Below, piece by piece: positions 23,861 to 56,091 of a stretch of 64,000 bases of DNA. The position numbers and the translations under genes were made by a program. The DNA comes from an uncultured Fibrobacteria bacterium (GTDB lineage: Bacteria > Fibrobacterota > Fibrobacteria > UBA11236). The stretch is from contig OY970309.1 in NCBI GenBank assembly GCA_963716395.1, forward strand, positions 3,296,001 through 3,360,000, in the 5' to 3' direction. The notes below the pieces were generated by a model. It was given only the letters and a program-made list of their open reading frames with translations, searched no databases and was not told where the DNA came from. How positions within the stretch are numbered: the stretch's first letter is position 1; each line of letters opens with the position of its first letter.

Positions 23861-23877
23861 GTCCGCCGGAGGCGGAC
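23861..23877. repeat. Solo hairpin GTCCGCC-GGA-GGCGGAC, same stem as the hairpins in the tRNA-Asn arrays
   Basis: Perfect 7-bp stem with GGA triloop in the hcp-tssE intergenic region. Confidence 0.7.
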
Positions 23878-51263: not shown

Positions 51264-52631
51264 ATGCTATTTCGTGAATTGAATTTAATTCCCACCATTT
51301 TATCCGCGCTACAGGCCAAAGGATATGAGACCCCCACGCCTATCCAGGCCGCGGCCATTCCTCCCGTGCTGGAGGGCAAAGATCTGCTGGGTTGCGCGCA
51401 AACCGGCACGGGCAAAACCGCCGCCTTCGCCCTGCCTATCTTGCAAACCTTGGCCGGAAAACCTCCGGCCGACCGCGGGCGTAAATATATCCGCGCCCTC
51501 ATTTTGGCGCCGACGCGCGAGTTGGCGTTGCAAATCGGAGAAAGCTTTCAGGCCTATGGCCGCGATTTGAACCTGCGTCTGGCCGCGGTTTTCGGCGGCG
51601 TCAGCGACTTCGGGCAAAAGCAAAAGCTGCGGCAAGGCGTCGACATTCTCGTGGCCACGCCGGGCCGGCTCATGGACCTACACGCACAACGCGTGTTGTC
51701 GCTGGATCGCGTCGAGATCTTCGTTCTGGACGAAGCCGATCGCATGCTCGATATGGGCTTTGTCCACGATGTGCGCCGTATCGCGGCTTTGCTGCCGGCC
51801 AAGCGCCAAACCCTGTTGTTTTCGGCCACCATGCCGCCGGAGATTCGCTCGCTTTCCCAAAGCCTTTTGCATGCTCCCGTCATGGTCGAGGTGGCGCGCG
51901 TTTCGTCGACCGCGGATAACGTGGATCAAGCCGTCTACCACGTCCCGCGCAATCTCAAGCCCGATTTGCTGCGGCATCTGCTGGCTGATGCGAATGTTCA
52001 GCGGGCCCTGGTTTTCACCCGCACCAAACACGGCGCCGACCGCCTGCACAAAACGCTGGACCGCCATCGCATCGCCGCGGAAGCGTTGCATGGCAATAAA
52101 ACCCAAGGCGCCCGCCAACGGGCCCTGGAAAATTTCAAGCGCGGAAAAACGCGCGTGCTGGTTGCCACCGACATTGCCGCGCGCGGTATTGACGTCACCG
52201 ACATTTCGCATGTCTTCAATTACGATTTGCCCGAAGTGCCGGAAACCTATGTGCATCGCGTGGGCCGTACGGCCCGCGCCGGAGCGACCGGAATGGCCGT
52301 GGCTTTCTGCGACGTGGATGAGCGCGGCTATTTGCACGGCATCGAACGTCTGACACGCAAACGTCTGGATGTGCTGCCGTTGCCGGTGTTCGCTGGCAAC
52401 GCGTCGGGGGCGGCTTCGGAGGTACAGGCCGATCCGCAGGAACGTCCGCTTCACCCGTCTTCCGCATCGCACCGATCGCCCCGATACGAAACCCGAAGCC
52501 AGGAACCGGCCCGGACTCCCCAATCGGAACACCGCGGGCCCGAGCACTCGGCAACCGGCCCGCGCTTTGGCCGTCGCCATGGTTCGAATTTCGAAGGTCG
52601 CGGCAAGGCCCGCAACTTTCGCGGCCGATAG
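51264..52631 (+). CDS. rhlE: DEAD-box RNA helicase (RhlE-like)
   Basis: AQTGTGKT, PTRELA, DEAD, SAT, ARGID and HRVGRTARAG. Confidence 0.92.
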   Translation: MLFRELNLIPTILSALQAKGYETPTPIQAAAIPPVLEGKDLLGCAQTGTGKTAAFALPILQTLAGKPPADRGRKYIRALILAPTRELALQIGESFQAYGRDLNLRLAAVFGGVSDFGQKQKLRQGVDILVATPGRLMDLHAQRVLSLDRVEIFVLDEADRMLDMGFVHDVRRIAALLPAKRQTLLFSATMPPEIRSLSQSLLHAPVMVEVARVSSTADNVDQAVYHVPRNLKPDLLRHLLADANVQRALVFTRTKHGADRLHKTLDRHRIAAEALHGNKTQGARQRALENFKRGKTRVLVATDIAARGIDVTDISHVFNYDLPEVPETYVHRVGRTARAGATGMAVAFCDVDERGYLHGIERLTRKRLDVLPLPVFAGNASGAASEVQADPQERPLHPSSASHRSPRYETRSQEPARTPQSEHRGPEHSATGPRFGRRHGSNFEGRGKARNFRGR

Positions 52632-52743
52632 CGGTTCACTTCCCCACCGATGTCTGGCCGTTTGCGTTGTGCAGAAAATGGCCGATTTATTAACTTTCAT
52701 GTGCTTTGATCCATTTGTGGGTCAGAGCGCTTTGATTTCTGGC

Positions 52744-52985
52744 CTCAGTTGGTAGAGCAAGTCCGCCGCAGGCGGATTAATCGCTCGACGAACTGAGACT
52801 TCAGAGGTTTGATTTGGTGCCTGATAGCTCAGTTGGTAGAGCAAGTCCGCCGCAGGCGGATTAATCGCTCGACGAACTGAGACTTCAGAGGTTTGATTTG
52901 GTGCCTGATAGCTCAGTTGGTAGAGCAAGTCCGCCGCAGGCGGATTAATCGCTCGACGAACTGAGACTTCAGAGGTTTGATTTGG
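52744..52985 (+). repeat. Tandem 84-bp repeats: tRNA-Asn 5' part (nt 1-45, nt 29-34 replaced by a 15-nt hairpin) plus a 30-bp spacer
   Basis: Full units start at 52818 and 52902, a partial unit at 52744 (tRNA nt 11), and the real tRNA follows in register at 52986. The units are identical. Confidence 0.95.
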
Positions 52986-53061
52986 TGCCTGATAGCTCAG
53001 TTGGTAGAGCAAGCGACTGTTAATCGCTCGGTCCCTGGTTCGAGTCCAGGTCAGGCAGCCA
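52986..53061 (+). tRNA. tRNA-Asn (GTT)
   Basis: TGCCTGA/TCAGGCA acceptor stem, AGCTCAGTTGGTAGAGC D-arm, AGCGA-CTGTTAA-TCGCT anticodon arm, GGTTCGAGTCC and CCA. Confidence 0.96.
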
Positions 53062-53075
53062 ACCTTGTATCCCAA

Positions 53076-53363
53076 GTGTTTCAAGCCTACGCACTTCGTT
53101 CTCCTGCTTCCGGCCTATTCTATTTCGGGCATACCAATGATTTGGATCGACGATTACGGGAACATAACGACCCCGCACGCGACTCACGGCATTTCACCCG
53201 AAGACATTTGCCATGGGTGCTCGTTTACTCCGAATCCTTTTTGACCAGGTCCGAAGCCATGAAAAGGGAAAAATTTTTCAAATCGGGCCAAGGAAGGGAA
53301 TGGTTAAAGCAAAAATTGGCCGAAGAAGAGTGTGGTAGAGCAAGTCCGCCGCAGGCGGATTAA
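53076..53363 (+). CDS. Small GIY-YIG nuclease (SLX1/UPF0213-like), copy 1
   Basis: GTG start; AYALRS...FYFGHTNDLDRRLREHN, PWVLVYSE and EAMKREKFFKSGQGR. Confidence 0.85.
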   Translation: MFQAYALRSPASGLFYFGHTNDLDRRLREHNDPARDSRHFTRRHLPWVLVYSESFLTRSEAMKREKFFKSGQGREWLKQKLAEEECGRASPPQAD

Positions 53364-53401
53364 TCGCTCGGTCCCTGGTTCGAGTCCAGGTCAGGCAGCC
53401 A
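53333..53401 (+). pseudogene. tRNA-Asn 3' fragment (nt 17-76) with hairpin-substituted anticodon arm
   Basis: TGGTAGAGCAAG-TCCGCCGCAGGCGGA-TTAATCGCTCGGTCCCTGGTTCGAGTCCAGGTCAGGCAGCCA. Confidence 0.9.
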
Positions 53402-53415
53402 ACCTTGTATCCCAA

Positions 53416-53703
53416 GTGTTTCAAGCCTACGCACTTCGTTCTCCTGCTTCCGGCCTATTCTATTTCGGGCATACCAATGATTTGGATCGACGATTACGGG
53501 AACATAACGACCCCGCACGCGACTCACGGCATTTCACCCGAAGACATTTGCCATGGGTGCTCGTTTACTCCGAATCCTTTTTGACCAGGTCCGAAGCCAT
53601 GAAAAGGGAAAAATTTTTCAAATCGGGCCAAGGAAGGGAATGGTTAAAGCAAAAATTGGCCGAAGAAGAGTGTGGTAGAGCAAGTCCGCCGCAGGCGGAT
53701 TAA
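53416..53703 (+). CDS. Small GIY-YIG nuclease, copy 2 (same protein as copy 1)
   Basis: Same translation, 340 bp downstream of copy 1. Confidence 0.85.
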   Translation: MFQAYALRSPASGLFYFGHTNDLDRRLREHNDPARDSRHFTRRHLPWVLVYSESFLTRSEAMKREKFFKSGQGREWLKQKLAEEECGRASPPQAD

Positions 53704-53741
53704 TCGCTCGGTCCCTGGTTCGAGTCCAGGTCAGGCAGCCA
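53673..53741 (+). pseudogene. tRNA-Asn 3' fragment with hairpin-substituted anticodon arm, second copy
   Basis: Identical to 53333-53401. Confidence 0.9.
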
Positions 53742-53755
53742 ACCTTGTATCCCAA

Positions 53756-53890
53756 GTGTTTCAAGCCTACGCACTTCGTTCTCCTGCTTCCGGCCTATTC
53801 TATTTCGGGCATACCGATGATTTGGATCGACGATTACGGGAACATAACGACCCCGCACGCGACTCACGGCATTTCACCCGAAGACATTTG
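53756..53890 (+). pseudogene. Truncated GIY-YIG copy 3
   Basis: Matches copy 1 to ...RRHL with one A>G change at 53816 (N>D), then runs into unrelated sequence. Confidence 0.85.
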
Positions 53891-54162
53891 AGCCCAATCG
53901 CCATCCTCGTGCCGAACCCGAGCAATGAAGGTTTTTGCCGACGCGCTACACTCGGATATGGACATGCGAAAGAATGCATGGCGAAATTCCTGGAACCAGA
54001 GTGAGTCAGGTTCGCAAGCGGGTGCATTTTCGTCGTGGGAGTTGCAGCCATAACCCGCCGATTTGATCAAAAGCGACCGGCCGGTTTTTCCACGCCCAAC
54101 CAAGACACTACTGCGCAAATGCAGTATTCTTTGTTGGGACAACTGGCTTTGCCTAGGATCAC

Positions 54163-56091
54163 ATGCGTTGGAAAATTATTTTCGTCTTCGGACTGCCTTT
54201 GTGGGCTGTGGCCGCTTCCCCACCTGCGGATTCCGTGGGTTCCGCCGAGCAGACGCAGGCGCGGGTGTATTTGAAGCAGCGTTTGCTGCAACTCAATCTG
54301 GAATTTCCATTCTCGACGTGGGCCCGGCGCCTCGATTCCCTGAACAATGAAATCGACGGCTTTCTAGCCCACCATCAACCCATGCGCTATGATCCGGCGT
54401 TGCGACCGGAGTTGCTGCGTTTTTCCGCAGCCTTGGATTCGGCGCGCGCCGAACGGCCCCAGGTGCAATCCCTCATCCATGAGATGTACGTGCAAATCAT
54501 GGTGGGGCGTATCCAAGAAGCTTTCCGCCGCGACGGCAAGACGCTGAGTCCGCAGGGGCGCGACGCACTGTATCGCGCCCTCAAGCCCTATGAGGCCGGC
54601 AGCCTGCGCCCTAAAACCGACTTTCTGGCCCAACTAGTTTCTTTGGATAGGAAATTTTCCCATGCCTACTCAACCTGGCTGTTCGAATGGGCCGGGGCCT
54701 GGTTTCCTCATTTATTGGCGACGCAATCGCAAGACACCGGTTTCGCCGCCGAAGAAGCCCAGCGGCAGGATCTGGCGCTGCAACTCGAATATTGGACGCG
54801 GCAAATCGACTCGGGCGGGGCAGCCCAGGCTGTGACCCATTTTCGGCAATTGCAGACCGAATTGCTGCAGGAAAGGCCGAGGGCGCTGGCCGACTTGCGC
54901 AGCATGGAAGCCAATCTCGATCCCGACATGTTGCTGAGCGACTTGTTGGAAGAGGCTCAGAAAGAAGGGCTTTCCTTCACCGTAGAGGCCGAAGAGCGGG
55001 TCGAAGCGGCGCTGGATGCGCGCGGACAATCCGTGCTGCTTCCCATGCGGGACAAAATCGACACCTGGATGCGTTTTGACCAAGCCCTGCAAAACGCCTT
55101 GACGCGCGCGCAGGCCACGGTGGATCGGAATCAACAGGCGATCACGGCGCATGCTGCCGAAGAACAGCAAGAACAGCAAGCGCAGCAGGAATTGGCCGCC
55201 CGCACCGAACAGGAGCAATGGGAACAACAGCGCCAGGCGGAAGAGCAGCGTGAACGCGAAGAACAGCAGCAACAACAAGAACAAGCGCGGCTGGCGGCTT
55301 TGGCCGCCGAGCAGGACTCGGCCGATGCGGCGGAGCGGGAACAGGCCGAACAAACCTTGGCGGAATGGAAAAGTTTGCAAGCCGGCGGCGCGCTGGCAGG
55401 GTTGGACGGGGCTACCGACAGCGCACTTGCCGTACACGCCGGAACTTTGAAAACCAGCACCGTGGCCAGCGGACGGACGCGGTTGCAGGTCGCGTCCCGA
55501 AAGTTTTCCGATACGCTGGCCTTTGTGGAAAAATTCACCGTGGACGAAAGCCACATCGATTTGTCCAAACTCAGCCTCGATCAAAAAGCTTCGCAATCGG
55601 CCTATGTCTACACCTCGCCGACCGGGCGCACCAACCCGCGCGATCTGGATCAATTCGTGCAGAACGTGGCGCTGGGATCTTTTAACACCGAATACCGTTT
55701 CCTTTCCTACCTGGTTCCGGAACGTCTGCGGTGCGGCCGCGATCTGGCTTGGGAATTCGATCGATCTTCCCAACCCGTTGTTCACGACCGGGTTTTCAGC
55801 TATGTCGATTTGGTGGACGACGCGCATCACAAACACGCTAAAGGCACCGGGACGCCGGCCGAGGGAGCGGAGATGAATCTGCCCGCGAATTTAATCGTTA
55901 TTTTCGACGCCCAAGGCGGCATTATGCGCTATCAATCCTTCGGCCATCCGGACCAAATATTCATCCGCCCGCAAGACCTGGTCGACGGGCGGCTGCATTA
56001 CAAGTTTTTAAACTACAGCGTCGATCGCGAAAACATCTATCTCAACGGGATCGATCCCGAGATAAAGGTCAGCGCGCCCGCCTCGGGCTGA
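54163..56091 (+). CDS. Hypothetical exported protein with Q/E-rich coiled coil
   Basis: Signal peptide MRWKIIFVFGLPLWAVAA; central EQQEQQAQQE..EEQQQQQEQ segment. Confidence 0.65.
   Translation: MRWKIIFVFGLPLWAVAASPPADSVGSAEQTQARVYLKQRLLQLNLEFPFSTWARRLDSLNNEIDGFLAHHQPMRYDPALRPELLRFSAALDSARAERPQVQSLIHEMYVQIMVGRIQEAFRRDGKTLSPQGRDALYRALKPYEAGSLRPKTDFLAQLVSLDRKFSHAYSTWLFEWAGAWFPHLLATQSQDTGFAAEEAQRQDLALQLEYWTRQIDSGGAAQAVTHFRQLQTELLQERPRALADLRSMEANLDPDMLLSDLLEEAQKEGLSFTVEAEERVEAALDARGQSVLLPMRDKIDTWMRFDQALQNALTRAQATVDRNQQAITAHAAEEQQEQQAQQELAARTEQEQWEQQRQAEEQREREEQQQQQEQARLAALAAEQDSADAAEREQAEQTLAEWKSLQAGGALAGLDGATDSALAVHAGTLKTSTVASGRTRLQVASRKFSDTLAFVEKFTVDESHIDLSKLSLDQKASQSAYVYTSPTGRTNPRDLDQFVQNVALGSFNTEYRFLSYLVPERLRCGRDLAWEFDRSSQPVVHDRVFSYVDLVDDAHHKHAKGTGTPAEGAEMNLPANLIVIFDAQGGIMRYQSFGHPDQIFIRPQDLVDGRLHYKFLNYSVDRENIYLNGIDPEIKVSAPASG

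What the first reader, a model, noticed from the sequence alone, without database searches (positions are those of the whole stretch)
52762..53699. Precise replacement of the anticodon arm by a GNA-triloop hairpin in every pseudo-tRNA
Seen: CGACTG (tRNA nt 29-34, ending at wobble G34) is replaced by TCCGCC-GCA-GGCGGA at 52762, 52846, 52930, 53345 and 53685, with both flanks unchanged. The same edit in both arrays is not expected from simple slippage of the tRNA gene. Established: C-GNA-G mini-hairpins are exceptionally stable in single-stranded DNA. Inference: the hairpin is a nuclease recognition or nicking signal, a scar left at the cut site, or an immunity mark that removes the target.
Basis: partly seen in the sequence, partly recalled or inferred. 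Interest (0 to 1): 0.82.

Follow-up and report, generated by a model that had tools for sequence, protein, structure and literature searches.

The report
Nuclease-linked hairpin in pseudo-tRNA copies
A short DNA hairpin that replaces part of the anticodon arm in every extra copy of a tRNA gene here belongs to a widespread, apparently undescribed selfish cassette built around a tiny GIY-YIG nuclease gene that lives beside tRNA genes in many bacterial phyla.

Summary
TCCGCCGCAGGCGGA replaces tRNA-Asn nt 29-34 in all 5 partial tRNA copies, with identical flanks.

It is not a local oddity.
- The copies flank one intact tRNA-Asn and a tandemly amplified gene for a 95-aa stand-alone GIY-YIG nuclease of the UPF0213/Slx1-like kind.
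- Of 58 homologous loci from many phyla, 40 sit directly beside a same-strand tRNA of varied isotype. 43 carry perfect TCC...GGA hairpins within 400 nt, mostly replacing whole cloverleaf modules of partial tRNA copies.
- A Phycisphaerales locus has the identical 15-mer at the identical position.
- Hairpin stem type follows the nuclease tree across host phyla.
- The same hairpin is dispersed genome-wide: 64 copies here against 3 for the control.
- A same-genus relative has the plain tRNA-Asn, with no nuclease gene, partial copies or hairpin beside it.

The GNA loop and the insertion position are not conserved.

Best reading (confidence 0.5): the hairpin is the cassette's own cis-site for the nuclease. 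Nuclease-stimulated unequal recombination built both arrays. Whether the hairpin is a recognition site or only an immunity mark remains open.

The parts
52733..52761 (+). Degenerate first 5' pseudo-tRNA fragment. It has leader-like sequence and a shortened 5' part ending in ...gtagagcaag.
   Evidence: sequence read; the 84-bp array starts at 52744
52762..52776 (+). Hairpin copy 1, TCCGCC-GCA-GGCGGA. It is followed at 52777-52787 by a copy of tRNA nt 35-45 and at 52788-52817 by a 30-nt leader copy.
52818..52871 (+). Upstream unit 2: tRNA nt 1-28 (52818-52845), hairpin copy 2 (52846-52860) and tRNA nt 35-45 (52861-52871). A leader copy follows at 52872-52901.
   Evidence: nt 1-28 at 100% identity
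52902..52955 (+). Upstream unit 3: tRNA nt 1-28 (52902-52929), hairpin copy 3 (52930-52944) and tRNA nt 35-45 (52945-52955). The leader of the intact gene follows at 52956-52985.
52986..53061 (+). Intact tRNA-Asn(GTT), the only tRNA-Asn gene in the genome.
   Evidence: 46 tRNAs, one Asn; Rfam tRNA, 69.3 bits
53076..53363 (+). GIY-YIG gene copy 1, 95 aa counted from a GTG (the start is inferred). Its last 10 codons read through tRNA nt 17-28 and the hairpin. Its stop codon is the TAA of the old anticodon loop.
   Evidence: ORF; PF01541, E 8.6e-15; UPF0213 structure 1YWL, 2.9e-8; catalytic residues
53333..53401 (+). Downstream pseudo-tRNA 1: nt 17-28 (53333-53344), hairpin copy 4 (53345-53359) and nt 35-76 (53360-53401).
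   Evidence: nt 35-76 at 100% identity
53416..53703 (+). GIY-YIG gene copy 2. Its protein is identical to that of copy 1.
53673..53741 (+). Downstream pseudo-tRNA 2: nt 17-28, hairpin copy 5 (53685-53699) and nt 35-76 (53700-53741).
53756..53890 (+). GIY-YIG gene copy 3, cut off after about 45 codons where the 340-bp array ends. It lacks the conserved E53, R64, E65 and K69, so it is probably inactive. It differs from the other copies by one base at 53817 (A to G).
   Evidence: (only profile positions 5-50 of 78 matched)
23862..23876 (.). A sixth member of the hairpin family in the window, TCCGCC-GGA-GGCGGA. It lies in another repeat context, not at a tRNA.

Best explanation
The hairpin is the cis-element of a small selfish cassette. 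The only gene of this cassette is a 95-aa stand-alone GIY-YIG nuclease of the UPF0213/YhbQ/Slx1-like kind.

The cassette sits directly beside an essential tRNA gene on the same strand. Inferred: it is transcribed with the tRNA. It keeps one tRNA copy intact. It is bordered by partial copies of the same tRNA, in which a cloverleaf module is replaced by a perfect GC-rich palindrome with a TCC...GGA foot. Here that module is nt 29-34 of the anticodon arm.

Shown:
- Hairpin and nuclease gene travel together across phyla and across tRNA isotypes.
- The stem type follows the nuclease clade.
- The same hairpin is spread over the genomes that carry the cassette.
- A same-genus relative has the plain tRNA.

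Inferred:
- The nuclease binds the palindrome, or its extruded hairpin, and probably cuts at or near it.
- The breaks are repaired by out-of-register homologous recombination between tRNA copies. Only products that keep one intact tRNA-Asn survive.
- This repair amplified one hairpin-bearing progenitor into both arrays: the 84-bp units upstream and the 340-bp nuclease-gene units downstream. That explains why both arrays carry the same edit.
- The substitution also makes the surplus copies useless as tRNAs and unlike the native site.
For: Local anatomy. Five identical hairpins flank one intact tRNA-Asn and 2.6 copies of a GIY-YIG gene. Array units are 99-100% identical, which points to recent amplification. 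The active-site residues Y5, Y16, R26, H30 and E53 are invariant in 28 homologues.

Generality.
- Of 58 loci found with the protein alone, 28 have an intact same-strand tRNA just before the gene and 12 just after it. Of the 18 with neither, 12 lie at a locus edge.
- 43 of 58 loci have at least one perfect TCC...GGA hairpin within 400 nt. Density is 2.32/kb near the gene and 0.42/kb far from it. A control foot gives 0.56/kb and 0.32/kb.
- The identical 15-mer lies at the identical position in a Phycisphaerales locus. A sister locus has loop GGG there. A relative from another family of the same order has the same architecture with TCCGCCGAAGGCGCA, also ending at nt 34.
- In a second sample not chosen by hairpin, 9 of 12 loci are tRNA-linked with such hairpins. 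2 of 12 have no tRNA but carry a palindrome directly upstream of the gene.

Co-inheritance. Hairpin class needs 8 changes on the nuclease tree, against 16.6 in shuffles (0 of 200 as low). Clades cross host phyla.

Dispersal.
- TCCGCC-N3-GGCGGA occurs 64 times here against 3 for the control. Among 41 relatives not chosen by hairpin, the two highest counts (64 and 27) are the two genomes with a close nuclease homologue.
- Three further carriers from other phyla have 53, 14 and 11 copies against 0 for the control.
- Stems are kept while loops vary: 64 perfect copies, 88 with one mismatch against a background of 54-77, and 26 different loop triplets.

Controls and context.
- The one partial tRNA in this genome not linked to the nuclease gene has no hairpin.
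- A same-genus relative has the same upstream helicase gene and a plain tRNA-Asn.
- Replaced segments end at cloverleaf module borders: 26/27, 34|35, 37/38, 43/44, 48 and 64/65. This fits a structure-selective nuclease.
- Precedent: the GIY-YIG enzyme SegB cuts inside phage tRNA genes and drives recombination-dependent segmental amplification that includes truncated segB copies (PMC13096335, sections 9 and 10 read).
- Slx1, of the same family as YhbQ/YazA, is a structure-selective nuclease (PMC7017083, passage).
Against: - No cleavage or binding was tested. Recognition site and immunity mark are not separated by any result here.
- If the nuclease cut all 64 hairpins, the genome would be at risk, so activity must be weak, regulated or limited to nicking.
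- Hairpin counts do not scale with gene copies: 1 locus with 53-64 hairpins, against 7 gene copies with 14 hairpins.
- Same-genus relatives without a close homologue still show a mild excess, a summed 59 against 15 for the control.
- G031 has 13 hairpins but only a weak nuclease hit at E 2.8e-4. It is 66% complete.
- 4 of 58 loci showed no hairpin on reading (L045, which runs into N; L074; L089; L090).
- The tree rests on 81 columns and many forks are unresolved. Kin share labels, so clustering alone does not prove co-evolution.
- The three genomes were chosen because their locus carries this hairpin. They show dispersal, not an independent association.
- Persistent cutting near an essential single-copy tRNA would be costly.
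Confidence: 0.5

Rival explanations
1. Immunity mark only. The nuclease cuts the native anticodon region of the tRNA gene, like a homing endonuclease. The hairpin merely removes that target from the extra copies, so they survive as stable repair templates and homology arms. The palindrome itself is not recognised.
For: - No partial copy at any locus examined keeps a complete anticodon arm. Either the 5' strand, the 3' strand or the whole arm is replaced or missing.
- The border 34|35 recurs in Asn, Tyr, Ser(GCT) and Lys(CTT) copies.
- Recurrent cuts in the intact copy, repaired out of register from uncuttable copies, would expand both arrays.
- SegB cuts inside tRNA genes.
- A same-genus empty site exists.
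Against: - It does not explain why the replacement is always a perfect palindrome of a clade-specific stem.
- It does not explain why that stem is conserved across phyla.
- It does not explain why the hairpin is dispersed genome-wide.
- It does not explain why fragments that already lack the anticodon arm carry a hairpin in the D arm, as in L044, L052, L066 and L081.
- It does not explain why gene copies away from tRNAs still have a palindrome upstream, as in L110 and L117.
- The intact tRNA would remain cuttable.
Confidence: 0.2
2. RNA-level role. The hairpin protects the ends of the nuclease mRNA, which is cut out of a tRNA precursor, or it stops the partial tRNA transcripts from folding and being processed or charged.
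For: - The hairpin lies at the very 3' end of the ORF when the intact tRNA is upstream. Here the stop codon follows it directly.
- It lies 20-50 nt before the start codon when the intact tRNA is downstream.
- No sigma-70-like promoter was found in 52550-54200. This fits co-transcription with the tRNA.
Against: - The upstream 84-bp units carry the hairpin but no ORF.
- Some partial tRNAs hold two or three hairpins.
- GNA triloops closed by C-G are enriched in this genome. From recall, these are extra stable in DNA rather than in RNA.
- The hairpins are not terminators: no T run follows, and the scan did not call them.
- Where the intact tRNA is downstream, transcription must read through the hairpin.
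Confidence: 0.1
3. Passive colonisation. The hairpin is a host REP-like repeat spread by some other mechanism. It accumulates in the partial tRNA copies only because they are dispensable DNA.
For: - 59 of the 64 hairpins in this genome are not at this locus. Several sit inside about 57-nt elements with inverted ends or in composite repeats.
- Same-genus relatives show a mild excess without a close nuclease homologue.
Against: - Nearly all nuclease-linked partial tRNAs are occupied: 5 of 5 here and 43 of 58 loci by the strict TCC...GGA rule. The one integrase-type partial tRNA here is not.
- The hairpins replace whole modules precisely rather than inserting at random.
- Stem type follows the nuclease clade, not the host phylum.
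- No Y1 (REP-associated) transposase was found in G000, G028 or G299.
Confidence: 0.1
4. Repair scar. The palindrome is made anew at each break, for example by fold-back synthesis or hairpin-end processing.
For: - Loops vary in sequence among copies with the same stem, even within one locus, as in L040, L041, L063, L079 and L083.
- Loop length also differs between loci.
Against: - The same 6-bp stem recurs in at least 5 phyla, and the full 15-mer is identical in two of them.
- The stem is not an inverted copy of the flanking tRNA sequence.
Confidence: 0.05

Closest known systems
SegB, the free-standing GIY-YIG homing endonuclease of T-even phages
   Same: - It has a GIY-YIG catalytic domain.
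- Its gene sits among tRNA genes.
- It cuts inside tRNA genes.
- Its breaks plus homologous recombination give tandem segmental amplification of tRNA plus nuclease gene, including truncated nuclease copies.
- It is associated with many tRNA isotypes.
Source: PMC13096335, sections 9 and 10 read.
   Different: - SegB is a phage protein, and from recall it is longer, with a DNA-binding part. The protein here has 95 aa and only the catalytic domain matches Pfam.
- This family is chromosomal: no phage or plasmid match at E 1e-6.
- No palindrome substitution of tRNA copies is described in the sections read.
REP elements and their RAYT transposases (recalled, not read here)
   Same: - A single nuclease gene is flanked by short palindromes.
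- The same palindromes are dispersed in tens of copies over the genome, singly and in composite clusters.
   Different: - RAYTs are HUH Y1 enzymes that form covalent intermediates. No Y1 transposase was found in G000, G028 or G299, and the enzyme here is a GIY-YIG nuclease.
- The hairpin is only 15 nt.
- The gene sits in a tRNA unit with partial tRNA copies.
Mobile endonuclease ORFs of fungal mitochondria that carry a duplicate of the 3' end of the invaded gene (recalled: Allomyces atp6; arbuscular mycorrhizal fungi)
   Same: - An endonuclease ORF is inserted in or beside an essential gene.
- The gene stays whole because part of it is duplicated.
- The displaced part remains next to the ORF as a fragment.
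   Different: - Those cases involve protein-coding genes in organelles.
- No palindrome replaces part of the displaced fragment.
- No dispersed hairpin family is involved.
UPF0213 / YhbQ / YazA, the prokaryotic Slx1-like stand-alone GIY-YIG proteins
   Same: - Sequence membership: PDB 1YWL at 2.9e-8 and 1ZG2 at 1e-4.
- These are the minimal stand-alone form of the domain (PMC1564403, passage).
- Slx1 is structure-selective (PMC7017083, passage).
   Different: - No function, tRNA-gene linkage or hairpin partner is given for the prokaryotic members in the passages read.
- Database names of the relatives are generic: 'GIY-YIG nuclease family protein', 'putative endonuclease'.
Partial tRNA copies left by integrase-mediated insertion at tRNA genes
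   Same: A direct repeat of part of a tRNA gene borders inserted DNA.
   Different: - Such remnants keep the native sequence. The tRNA-Arg nt 30-77 copy in this genome does, and it has no hairpin.
- Here the repeats are 84-340 bp apart with no integrase gene between them.
- They lie on both sides of the intact gene and carry the palindrome.

Membership tests
GIY-YIG superfamily, UPF0213/Slx1-like stand-alone branch | Match to the GIY-YIG catalytic domain profile | tested here: met
   PF01541 at E 8.6e-15, 55.2 bits (cut-off 22.6), for copies 1 and 2. PDB UPF0213 chains 1YWL at 2.9e-8 and 1ZG2 at 1e-4. No NCBIfam model matched.
GIY-YIG superfamily, UPF0213/Slx1-like stand-alone branch | Conserved catalytic Tyr, Tyr, Arg, His and Glu | tested here: met
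   Y5, Y16, G18, R26, H30, E53 and E65 are invariant in 28 aligned homologues. Assigning these residues to catalysis rests on recall.
GIY-YIG superfamily, UPF0213/Slx1-like stand-alone branch | Nuclease activity | not testable with these tools
   Needs purified protein.
Free-standing homing endonuclease (SegB-like) | Separate DNA-binding domain joined to the catalytic domain | tested here: not met
   The protein has 95 aa. Pfam matches only residues 8-73 of the 98 submitted, to PF01541. The alignment shows no further conserved domain.
Free-standing homing endonuclease (SegB-like) | Presence/absence polymorphism at a conserved target gene | tested here: met
   G005, of the same genus, has the syntenic helicase gene (71% nt identity) and a tRNA-Asn at 96% identity. 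It has no partial copies, hairpin or nuclease gene there. 0 of 11 same-genus genomes have a homologue at E 1e-10.
Free-standing homing endonuclease (SegB-like) | Cuts the allele that lacks the gene | not testable with these tools
   Needs a cleavage assay on the native tRNA-Asn gene.
REP/RAYT system | Dispersed short palindromes, also flanking the nuclease gene | tested here: met
   64 copies against 3 for the control in G000. Hairpins lie on both sides of gene copies 1 and 2.
REP/RAYT system | HUH Y1 transposase | tested here: not met
   PF01797 was not found in G000 (99% complete), G028 or G299. It is present in G296 and G298.
Intrinsic terminator | GC-rich stem-loop followed by a T run | tested here: not met
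   The hairpins are followed by ttaatcgc. The scan of 52550-54200 called two other sites and none of the five hairpins.
C-GNA-G DNA mini-hairpin | GNA triloop closed by a C-G pair, conserved among relatives | tested here: inconclusive
   - Met in this window: loop GCA closed by C-G.
- In G000, 32 of 59 other family members have a GNA or TNC loop, against 12% expected.
- At homologous loci only 12 of 35 3-nt loops are GNA or TNC, although 31 of 35 are closed by C-G.
- Loops of 2 and 4-7 nt also occur.

The most novel reading that the evidence does not exclude
A new kind of two-part mobile system. A minimal 95-aa GIY-YIG nuclease and a cognate hairpin of 11-21 nt form a REP/RAYT-like pair without an HUH enzyme. 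The nuclease recognises the hairpin by structure plus its TCC...GGA foot. It excises stem-loop modules of tRNA genes in single-stranded or cruciform DNA and swaps hairpins in. It also seeds hairpins across the genome. The gene survives by lodging in the transcription unit of an essential tRNA, which it keeps whole through duplication. This would give the widespread UPF0213 family a function.
Probability: 0.25. Interest if true: 0.9.

Novelty: new variant of a known kind. Interest (0 to 1): 0.8.

Why it matters
- It would give a role to a large, cross-phylum family of tiny GIY-YIG proteins that databases name only generically.
- It would add bacterial chromosomes to the places where GIY-YIG nucleases reshape tRNA loci. 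So far this has been shown for phage SegB.
- It points to a short, sequence-defined DNA hairpin with a candidate cognate nuclease. That pair can be tested directly at the bench and could be useful as a structure-specific cutter.
- It matters for annotation and assembly. Hairpin-bearing partial tRNAs can be called as odd tRNAs: ARAGORN named one 'tRNA-???(taaa)' in L078.
- Many family members lie at contig ends or on very short contigs. Repeats of this kind may be what breaks the assemblies there.

Tried and rejected
- Rfam, E up to 1 on 52500-54100: only the intact tRNA, plus a chance-level YrlA match at 19 bits against a gathering score of 69. No known RNA family covers the hairpin units.

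- Pattern scan of 296 same-phylum genomes for a D-arm motif followed by the hairpin. Only G000 and G028 gave tRNA-linked hits. Five hits in another genus lay away from any tRNA gene that ARAGORN could find and were dropped.

- Replication-strand bias of the GNA-bearing strand: 18 leading against 14 lagging, so none.

- Homodimer prediction for the nuclease: no verdict. It is not used as evidence either way.

- Sequencing runs. No RNA holder was listed. All four runs laid were Logan contigs from metagenomes.
  - Two short contigs from one study match 53117-53478 and 53626-53781 without differences and so span hairpin junctions.
  - They may come from the source sample and are not independent.
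  - Copy number, circles and expression could not be read from them.

- Phage and plasmid collections: no protein match at E 1e-6.

- NCBIfam: no model matched.

- Literature. Six full-text searches found no paper describing small GIY-YIG genes beside bacterial tRNA genes with hairpin-bearing partial tRNAs.
  - The preprint 10.1101/2022.07.05.498093 on tRNA gene fragments has no occurrence of GIY, hairpin, tandem, endonuclease or palindrom- (term search only).
  - Subscription journals and supplementary files were not searchable, so prior description cannot be excluded.

- Ideas considered and dropped:
  - P-nucleotide-type palindromes: the stem is not an inverted copy of the flanks.
  - A transposon with hairpin halves as its ends: the nuclease-gene segment has no TCC...GGA termini.
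  - Simple slippage: it cannot create the substitution.

- Rows dropped before the tree: 12 whose matched stretch ran past a stop codon and 5 shorter than 180 nt. That left 44 of 61 rows.

This call repeats it with that field added.
Full report
**What is in the window**

The 15-mer TCCGCCGCAGGCGGA occurs exactly five times, at 52762, 52846, 52930, 53345 and 53685. An intact tRNA-Asn(GTT) lies at 52986-53061. It is the only tRNA-Asn among the 46 tRNA genes of the 3.75-Mb, single-contig genome.

Its nt 29-34 (cgactg, ending at wobble G34) are what the 15-mer replaces. The flanks gtagagcaag and ttaatcgctcg are unchanged in all five copies.

Upstream of the intact gene there are three 84-bp units, 100% identical by Tandem Repeats Finder. 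Each unit holds:
- a 30-nt leader;
- tRNA nt 1-28;
- the hairpin;
- tRNA nt 35-45.

The first unit has a degenerate 5' part.

Downstream there are 2.6 units of 340 bp, 99% identical. Each unit holds:
- tRNA nt 35-76;
- a short spacer;
- a GIY-YIG ORF;
- tRNA nt 17-28;
- the hairpin.

The third ORF copy is cut off at about 53890, where the array ends.

The ORF reads through the tRNA fragment and the hairpin. It stops at the TAA of the old anticodon loop. The substitution adds 9 nt, so the frame is kept.

As single-stranded DNA the 15-mer folds into a 6-bp stem with a GCA loop at -5.9 kcal/mol.

**The gene**

The ORF matches PF01541 at E 8.6e-15. It also matches two solved 'UPF0213' proteins, 1YWL at 2.9e-8 and 1ZG2 at 1e-4. 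In an alignment of 28 homologues, Y5, Y16, G18, R26, H30, E53, A61, E65 and K69 are invariant. The family therefore looks enzymatically active.

The protein has about 95 aa and no second domain. A 2006 survey calls the prokaryotic Slx1-like proteins the minimal stand-alone form of the domain (PMC1564403, passage). A review places YhbQ and YazA with Slx1, the catalytic subunit of the structure-selective Slx1-Slx4 nuclease (PMC7017083, passage).

Database names of the 42 relatives at E 1e-10 or better are generic. The genome has no other small member. The one further PF01541 match lies in a 711-aa frame.

**The architecture is general**

A scan of one genome per species with the protein alone returned 58 loci. 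They come from Planctomycetota, Verrucomicrobiota, Bacteroidota, Ignavibacteriota, Acidobacteriota, several candidate phyla and others.

- In 28 loci an intact same-strand tRNA ends within 200 nt before the gene.
- In 12 loci one starts within 80 nt after it.
- 18 loci have neither, and in 12 of those the gene lies within 330 nt of the locus start.

Isotypes include Asn, Tyr, Ser, Lys, Trp, Gln, Asp, Arg, Phe, Cys, Ile, Val, Met and Pro.

Partial copies of the neighbouring tRNA, identical to it over the stretches they keep, lie on the other side of the gene. They often also form arrays upstream, for example ten 74-bp units in L083.

In these copies a stretch of the tRNA is replaced by a perfect GC-rich hairpin.
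- By a strict rule (perfect stem of at least 4, starting TCC and ending GGA, within 400 nt, outside intact tRNAs and the ORF interior), 43 of 58 loci have at least one.
- Density is 2.32/kb near the gene against 0.42/kb far from it. A control foot gives 0.56/kb and 0.32/kb.
- Others carry CCCGCC/GGCGGG or CCTGCC/GGCAGG types.
- On reading, I saw none at L045 (runs into N), L074, L089 and L090.

The closest cases are striking.
- A Phycisphaerales locus (L034, 57% protein identity) has the identical 15-mer replacing nt 29-34 of its own tRNA-Asn.
- Its sister locus L035 has loop GGG at the same place.
- A relative from another family of the same order (G028, low G+C) has two upstream partial copies, the intact tRNA-Asn, the nuclease gene and a downstream partial copy. 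There TCCGCCGAAGGCGCA replaces nt 25-34.

In a second sample drawn from the window's own phylum by protein similarity only, 15 of 296 genomes have a homologue at E 1e-10. I read the stand-alone loci of 11 of them, 12 loci in all:
- 9 are tRNA-linked with such hairpins;
- 2 have no tRNA but carry a palindrome directly upstream of the gene;
- 1 is unclear.

Stem covariation: yes. The arms are always complementary while their sequence changes between loci.

Conserved GNA loop: no.
- Of 35 distinct 3-nt loops next to tRNA-derived flanks, 12 are GNA or its complement, though 31 are closed by C-G.
- Loops of 2 and 4-7 nt also occur.
- Within this genome GNA is favoured: 32 of 59 family members outside the locus, against 12% expected.

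Constant position: no. Counting the first anticodon base as 34, the replaced stretch is one of the following:
- nt 25/29 to 34: this window, G028, L034, L035, L037, L039 and L043, also seen by eye in Lys(CTT) and Asn copies of L111-L115 and L118;
- the whole arm 27-43: eight loci;
- nt 38 to 48-56: five or more loci;
- the T arm;
- or the hairpin sits in the D arm, where the intact tRNA is downstream.

The borders fall at cloverleaf module limits.

**The hairpin is a dispersed family tied to the cassette**

- The exact 15-mer occurs 18 times in the genome, 13 of them away from this locus.
- TCCGCC-N3-GGCGGA occurs 64 times with 26 different loops. Eleven of the twelve other palindromes tried occur 0-5 times; GCCGCC/GGCGGC occurs 20 times.
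- Perfect copies number 64. One-mismatch copies number 88, against a background of 54-77 for other loop lengths. So the stems are kept while the loops are free.
- Some copies sit in about 57-nt elements with inverted ends, one starting 10 nt after tRNA-Leu. Others sit in composite repeats.
- Among 41 relatives not chosen by hairpin, the counts are 64 (control 3) for G000, 27 (control 0) for G028 and 13 (control 1) for G031. The other 38 have at most 11, with controls of 0-13.
- G000 and G028 are the two relatives with a close nuclease homologue. G031 has only a weak hit and is 66% complete.
- Three carriers from other phyla, chosen because their locus has this stem, hold 53, 14 and 11 copies against 0 for the control. 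One of them is a 0.9-Mb genome. Some of these copies lie at other tRNAs, at partial tRNA-Ser copies, or at a second cassette.
- Two carriers whose locus hairpins have other loop lengths hold 0 and 1 copies.
- On a tree of 44 nuclease sequences, hairpin class needs 8 changes against 16.6 in shuffles (0 of 200 as low).
- The TCC-C class is one starred clade on tRNA-Ser genes of Bacteroidota and Ignavibacteriota. The CCTGCC class is another starred clade. TCCGCC is spread along the backbone over at least five phyla. The tree is short and kin share labels, so this shows co-inheritance, not proof of co-evolution.
- No Y1 transposase was found in G000, G028 or G299.

**Controls at home**

- The only partial tRNA in this genome that is not next to the nuclease gene is tRNA-Arg nt 30-77, 11 kb from its parent. 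It looks like an integration remnant. It keeps the native anticodon region and has no hairpin.
- A same-genus genome (G005) has the same helicase gene upstream (71% nt identity) and a single plain tRNA-Asn (96% identity), with no partial copies, hairpin or nuclease gene there.
- None of the 11 same-genus genomes has a homologue at E 1e-10.

The complex was therefore probably gained in this lineage. Loss in the relatives is not excluded.

**How it most likely works**

Shown: the hairpin, the nuclease gene and the partial tRNA copies form one unit that recurs across phyla and isotypes.

Inferred:
- The palindrome is the nuclease's own site, bound and probably cut.
- The arrays arise from breaks repaired by out-of-register homologous recombination between tRNA copies, with selection keeping one intact tRNA-Asn.
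- One hairpin-bearing progenitor copied in this way explains the same edit in both arrays and the near-identity of the units.

The phage enzyme SegB gives an experimental precedent for the second half. It cuts inside tRNA genes, and recombination then yields ladders of tRNA plus segB units, including truncated segB copies (PMC13096335, sections 9 and 10).

From recall only: the I-TevI catalytic domain prefers a C-N3-G cut motif. That is what the hairpin apex spells in 31 of 35 cases. If cuts fall there, error-prone repair would explain free loops on fixed stems.

The main rival is that the native anticodon region is the target and the hairpin only removes it. This fits the fact that no partial copy keeps a whole anticodon arm. 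It does not explain:
- the conserved palindromes;
- their dispersal;
- the D-arm hairpins in fragments that already lack the arm;
- the palindromes beside gene copies away from tRNAs.

Both readings may hold at once.

**Novelty**

Six full-text searches found no description of this arrangement. Subscription journals and supplementary files could not be searched.

I rate it a new variant of known kinds, namely free-standing GIY-YIG endonuclease cassettes and REP-like palindromes. There is a fair chance that it is a new two-part system.

Noticed in passing
window 23862-23876: Another member of the hairpin family (TCCGCC-GGA-GGCGGA), followed by ctgcagggtagttcatt. Similar right flanks recur at several other genome sites, which suggests a further repeat family built around the hairpin.
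   Followed up: partly
G000:C1:1244549-1244605 (outside the window): An element of about 57 nt with inverted ends (gggtacctctaataatcg...) and the hairpin at its centre. It starts 10 nt after tRNA-Leu(TAA). Of the 19 end pairs listed genome-wide, 10 hold 1-3 perfect hairpins; the other 9 hold none, and several of those are chance pairs or degenerate copies.
   Followed up: partly
G000:C1:1053967-1054014 (outside the window): A 48-nt exact copy of tRNA-Arg(TCG) nt 30-77, 11.4 kb from the intact gene. It is probably the far end of an integrated island. The island's content was not examined.
   Followed up: no
L078:2383-2456: ARAGORN calls a hairpin-bearing partial tRNA-Val a 'tRNA-???' with the four-base anticodon taaa. 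Such copies can be mis-annotated as unusual tRNAs.
   Followed up: no
L110 and L117 (G246:C72, G227:C19): Nuclease homologues that are not beside tRNAs. Each has a long CCTGCC...GGCAGG palindrome directly upstream of its start, and both sit in what looks like another operon.
   Followed up: no
G033:C2:17146-17352 and G195:C119:8281-8490: The GIY-YIG domain lies inside open frames of 934 and 653 aa, so fused forms of this branch exist. They were not examined.
   Followed up: no
L092-L099 (G296): In the Phycisphaerales carrier the hairpins are nested in larger repeats with further complementary arms (ccctcc...gggagg). These form multi-hairpin clusters.
   Followed up: no
window 52977-53282: A metagenome contig of run X3 carries the tRNA-Asn, followed by 25 other letters and then sequence like 53224-53282 with 5 differences. 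This may be a related strain with a differently built cassette.
   Followed up: no
G000 whole genome: Cumulative GC skew has its minimum near 1.18 Mb and its maximum near 3.25 Mb. The locus lies about 100 kb past the skew maximum.
   Followed up: no
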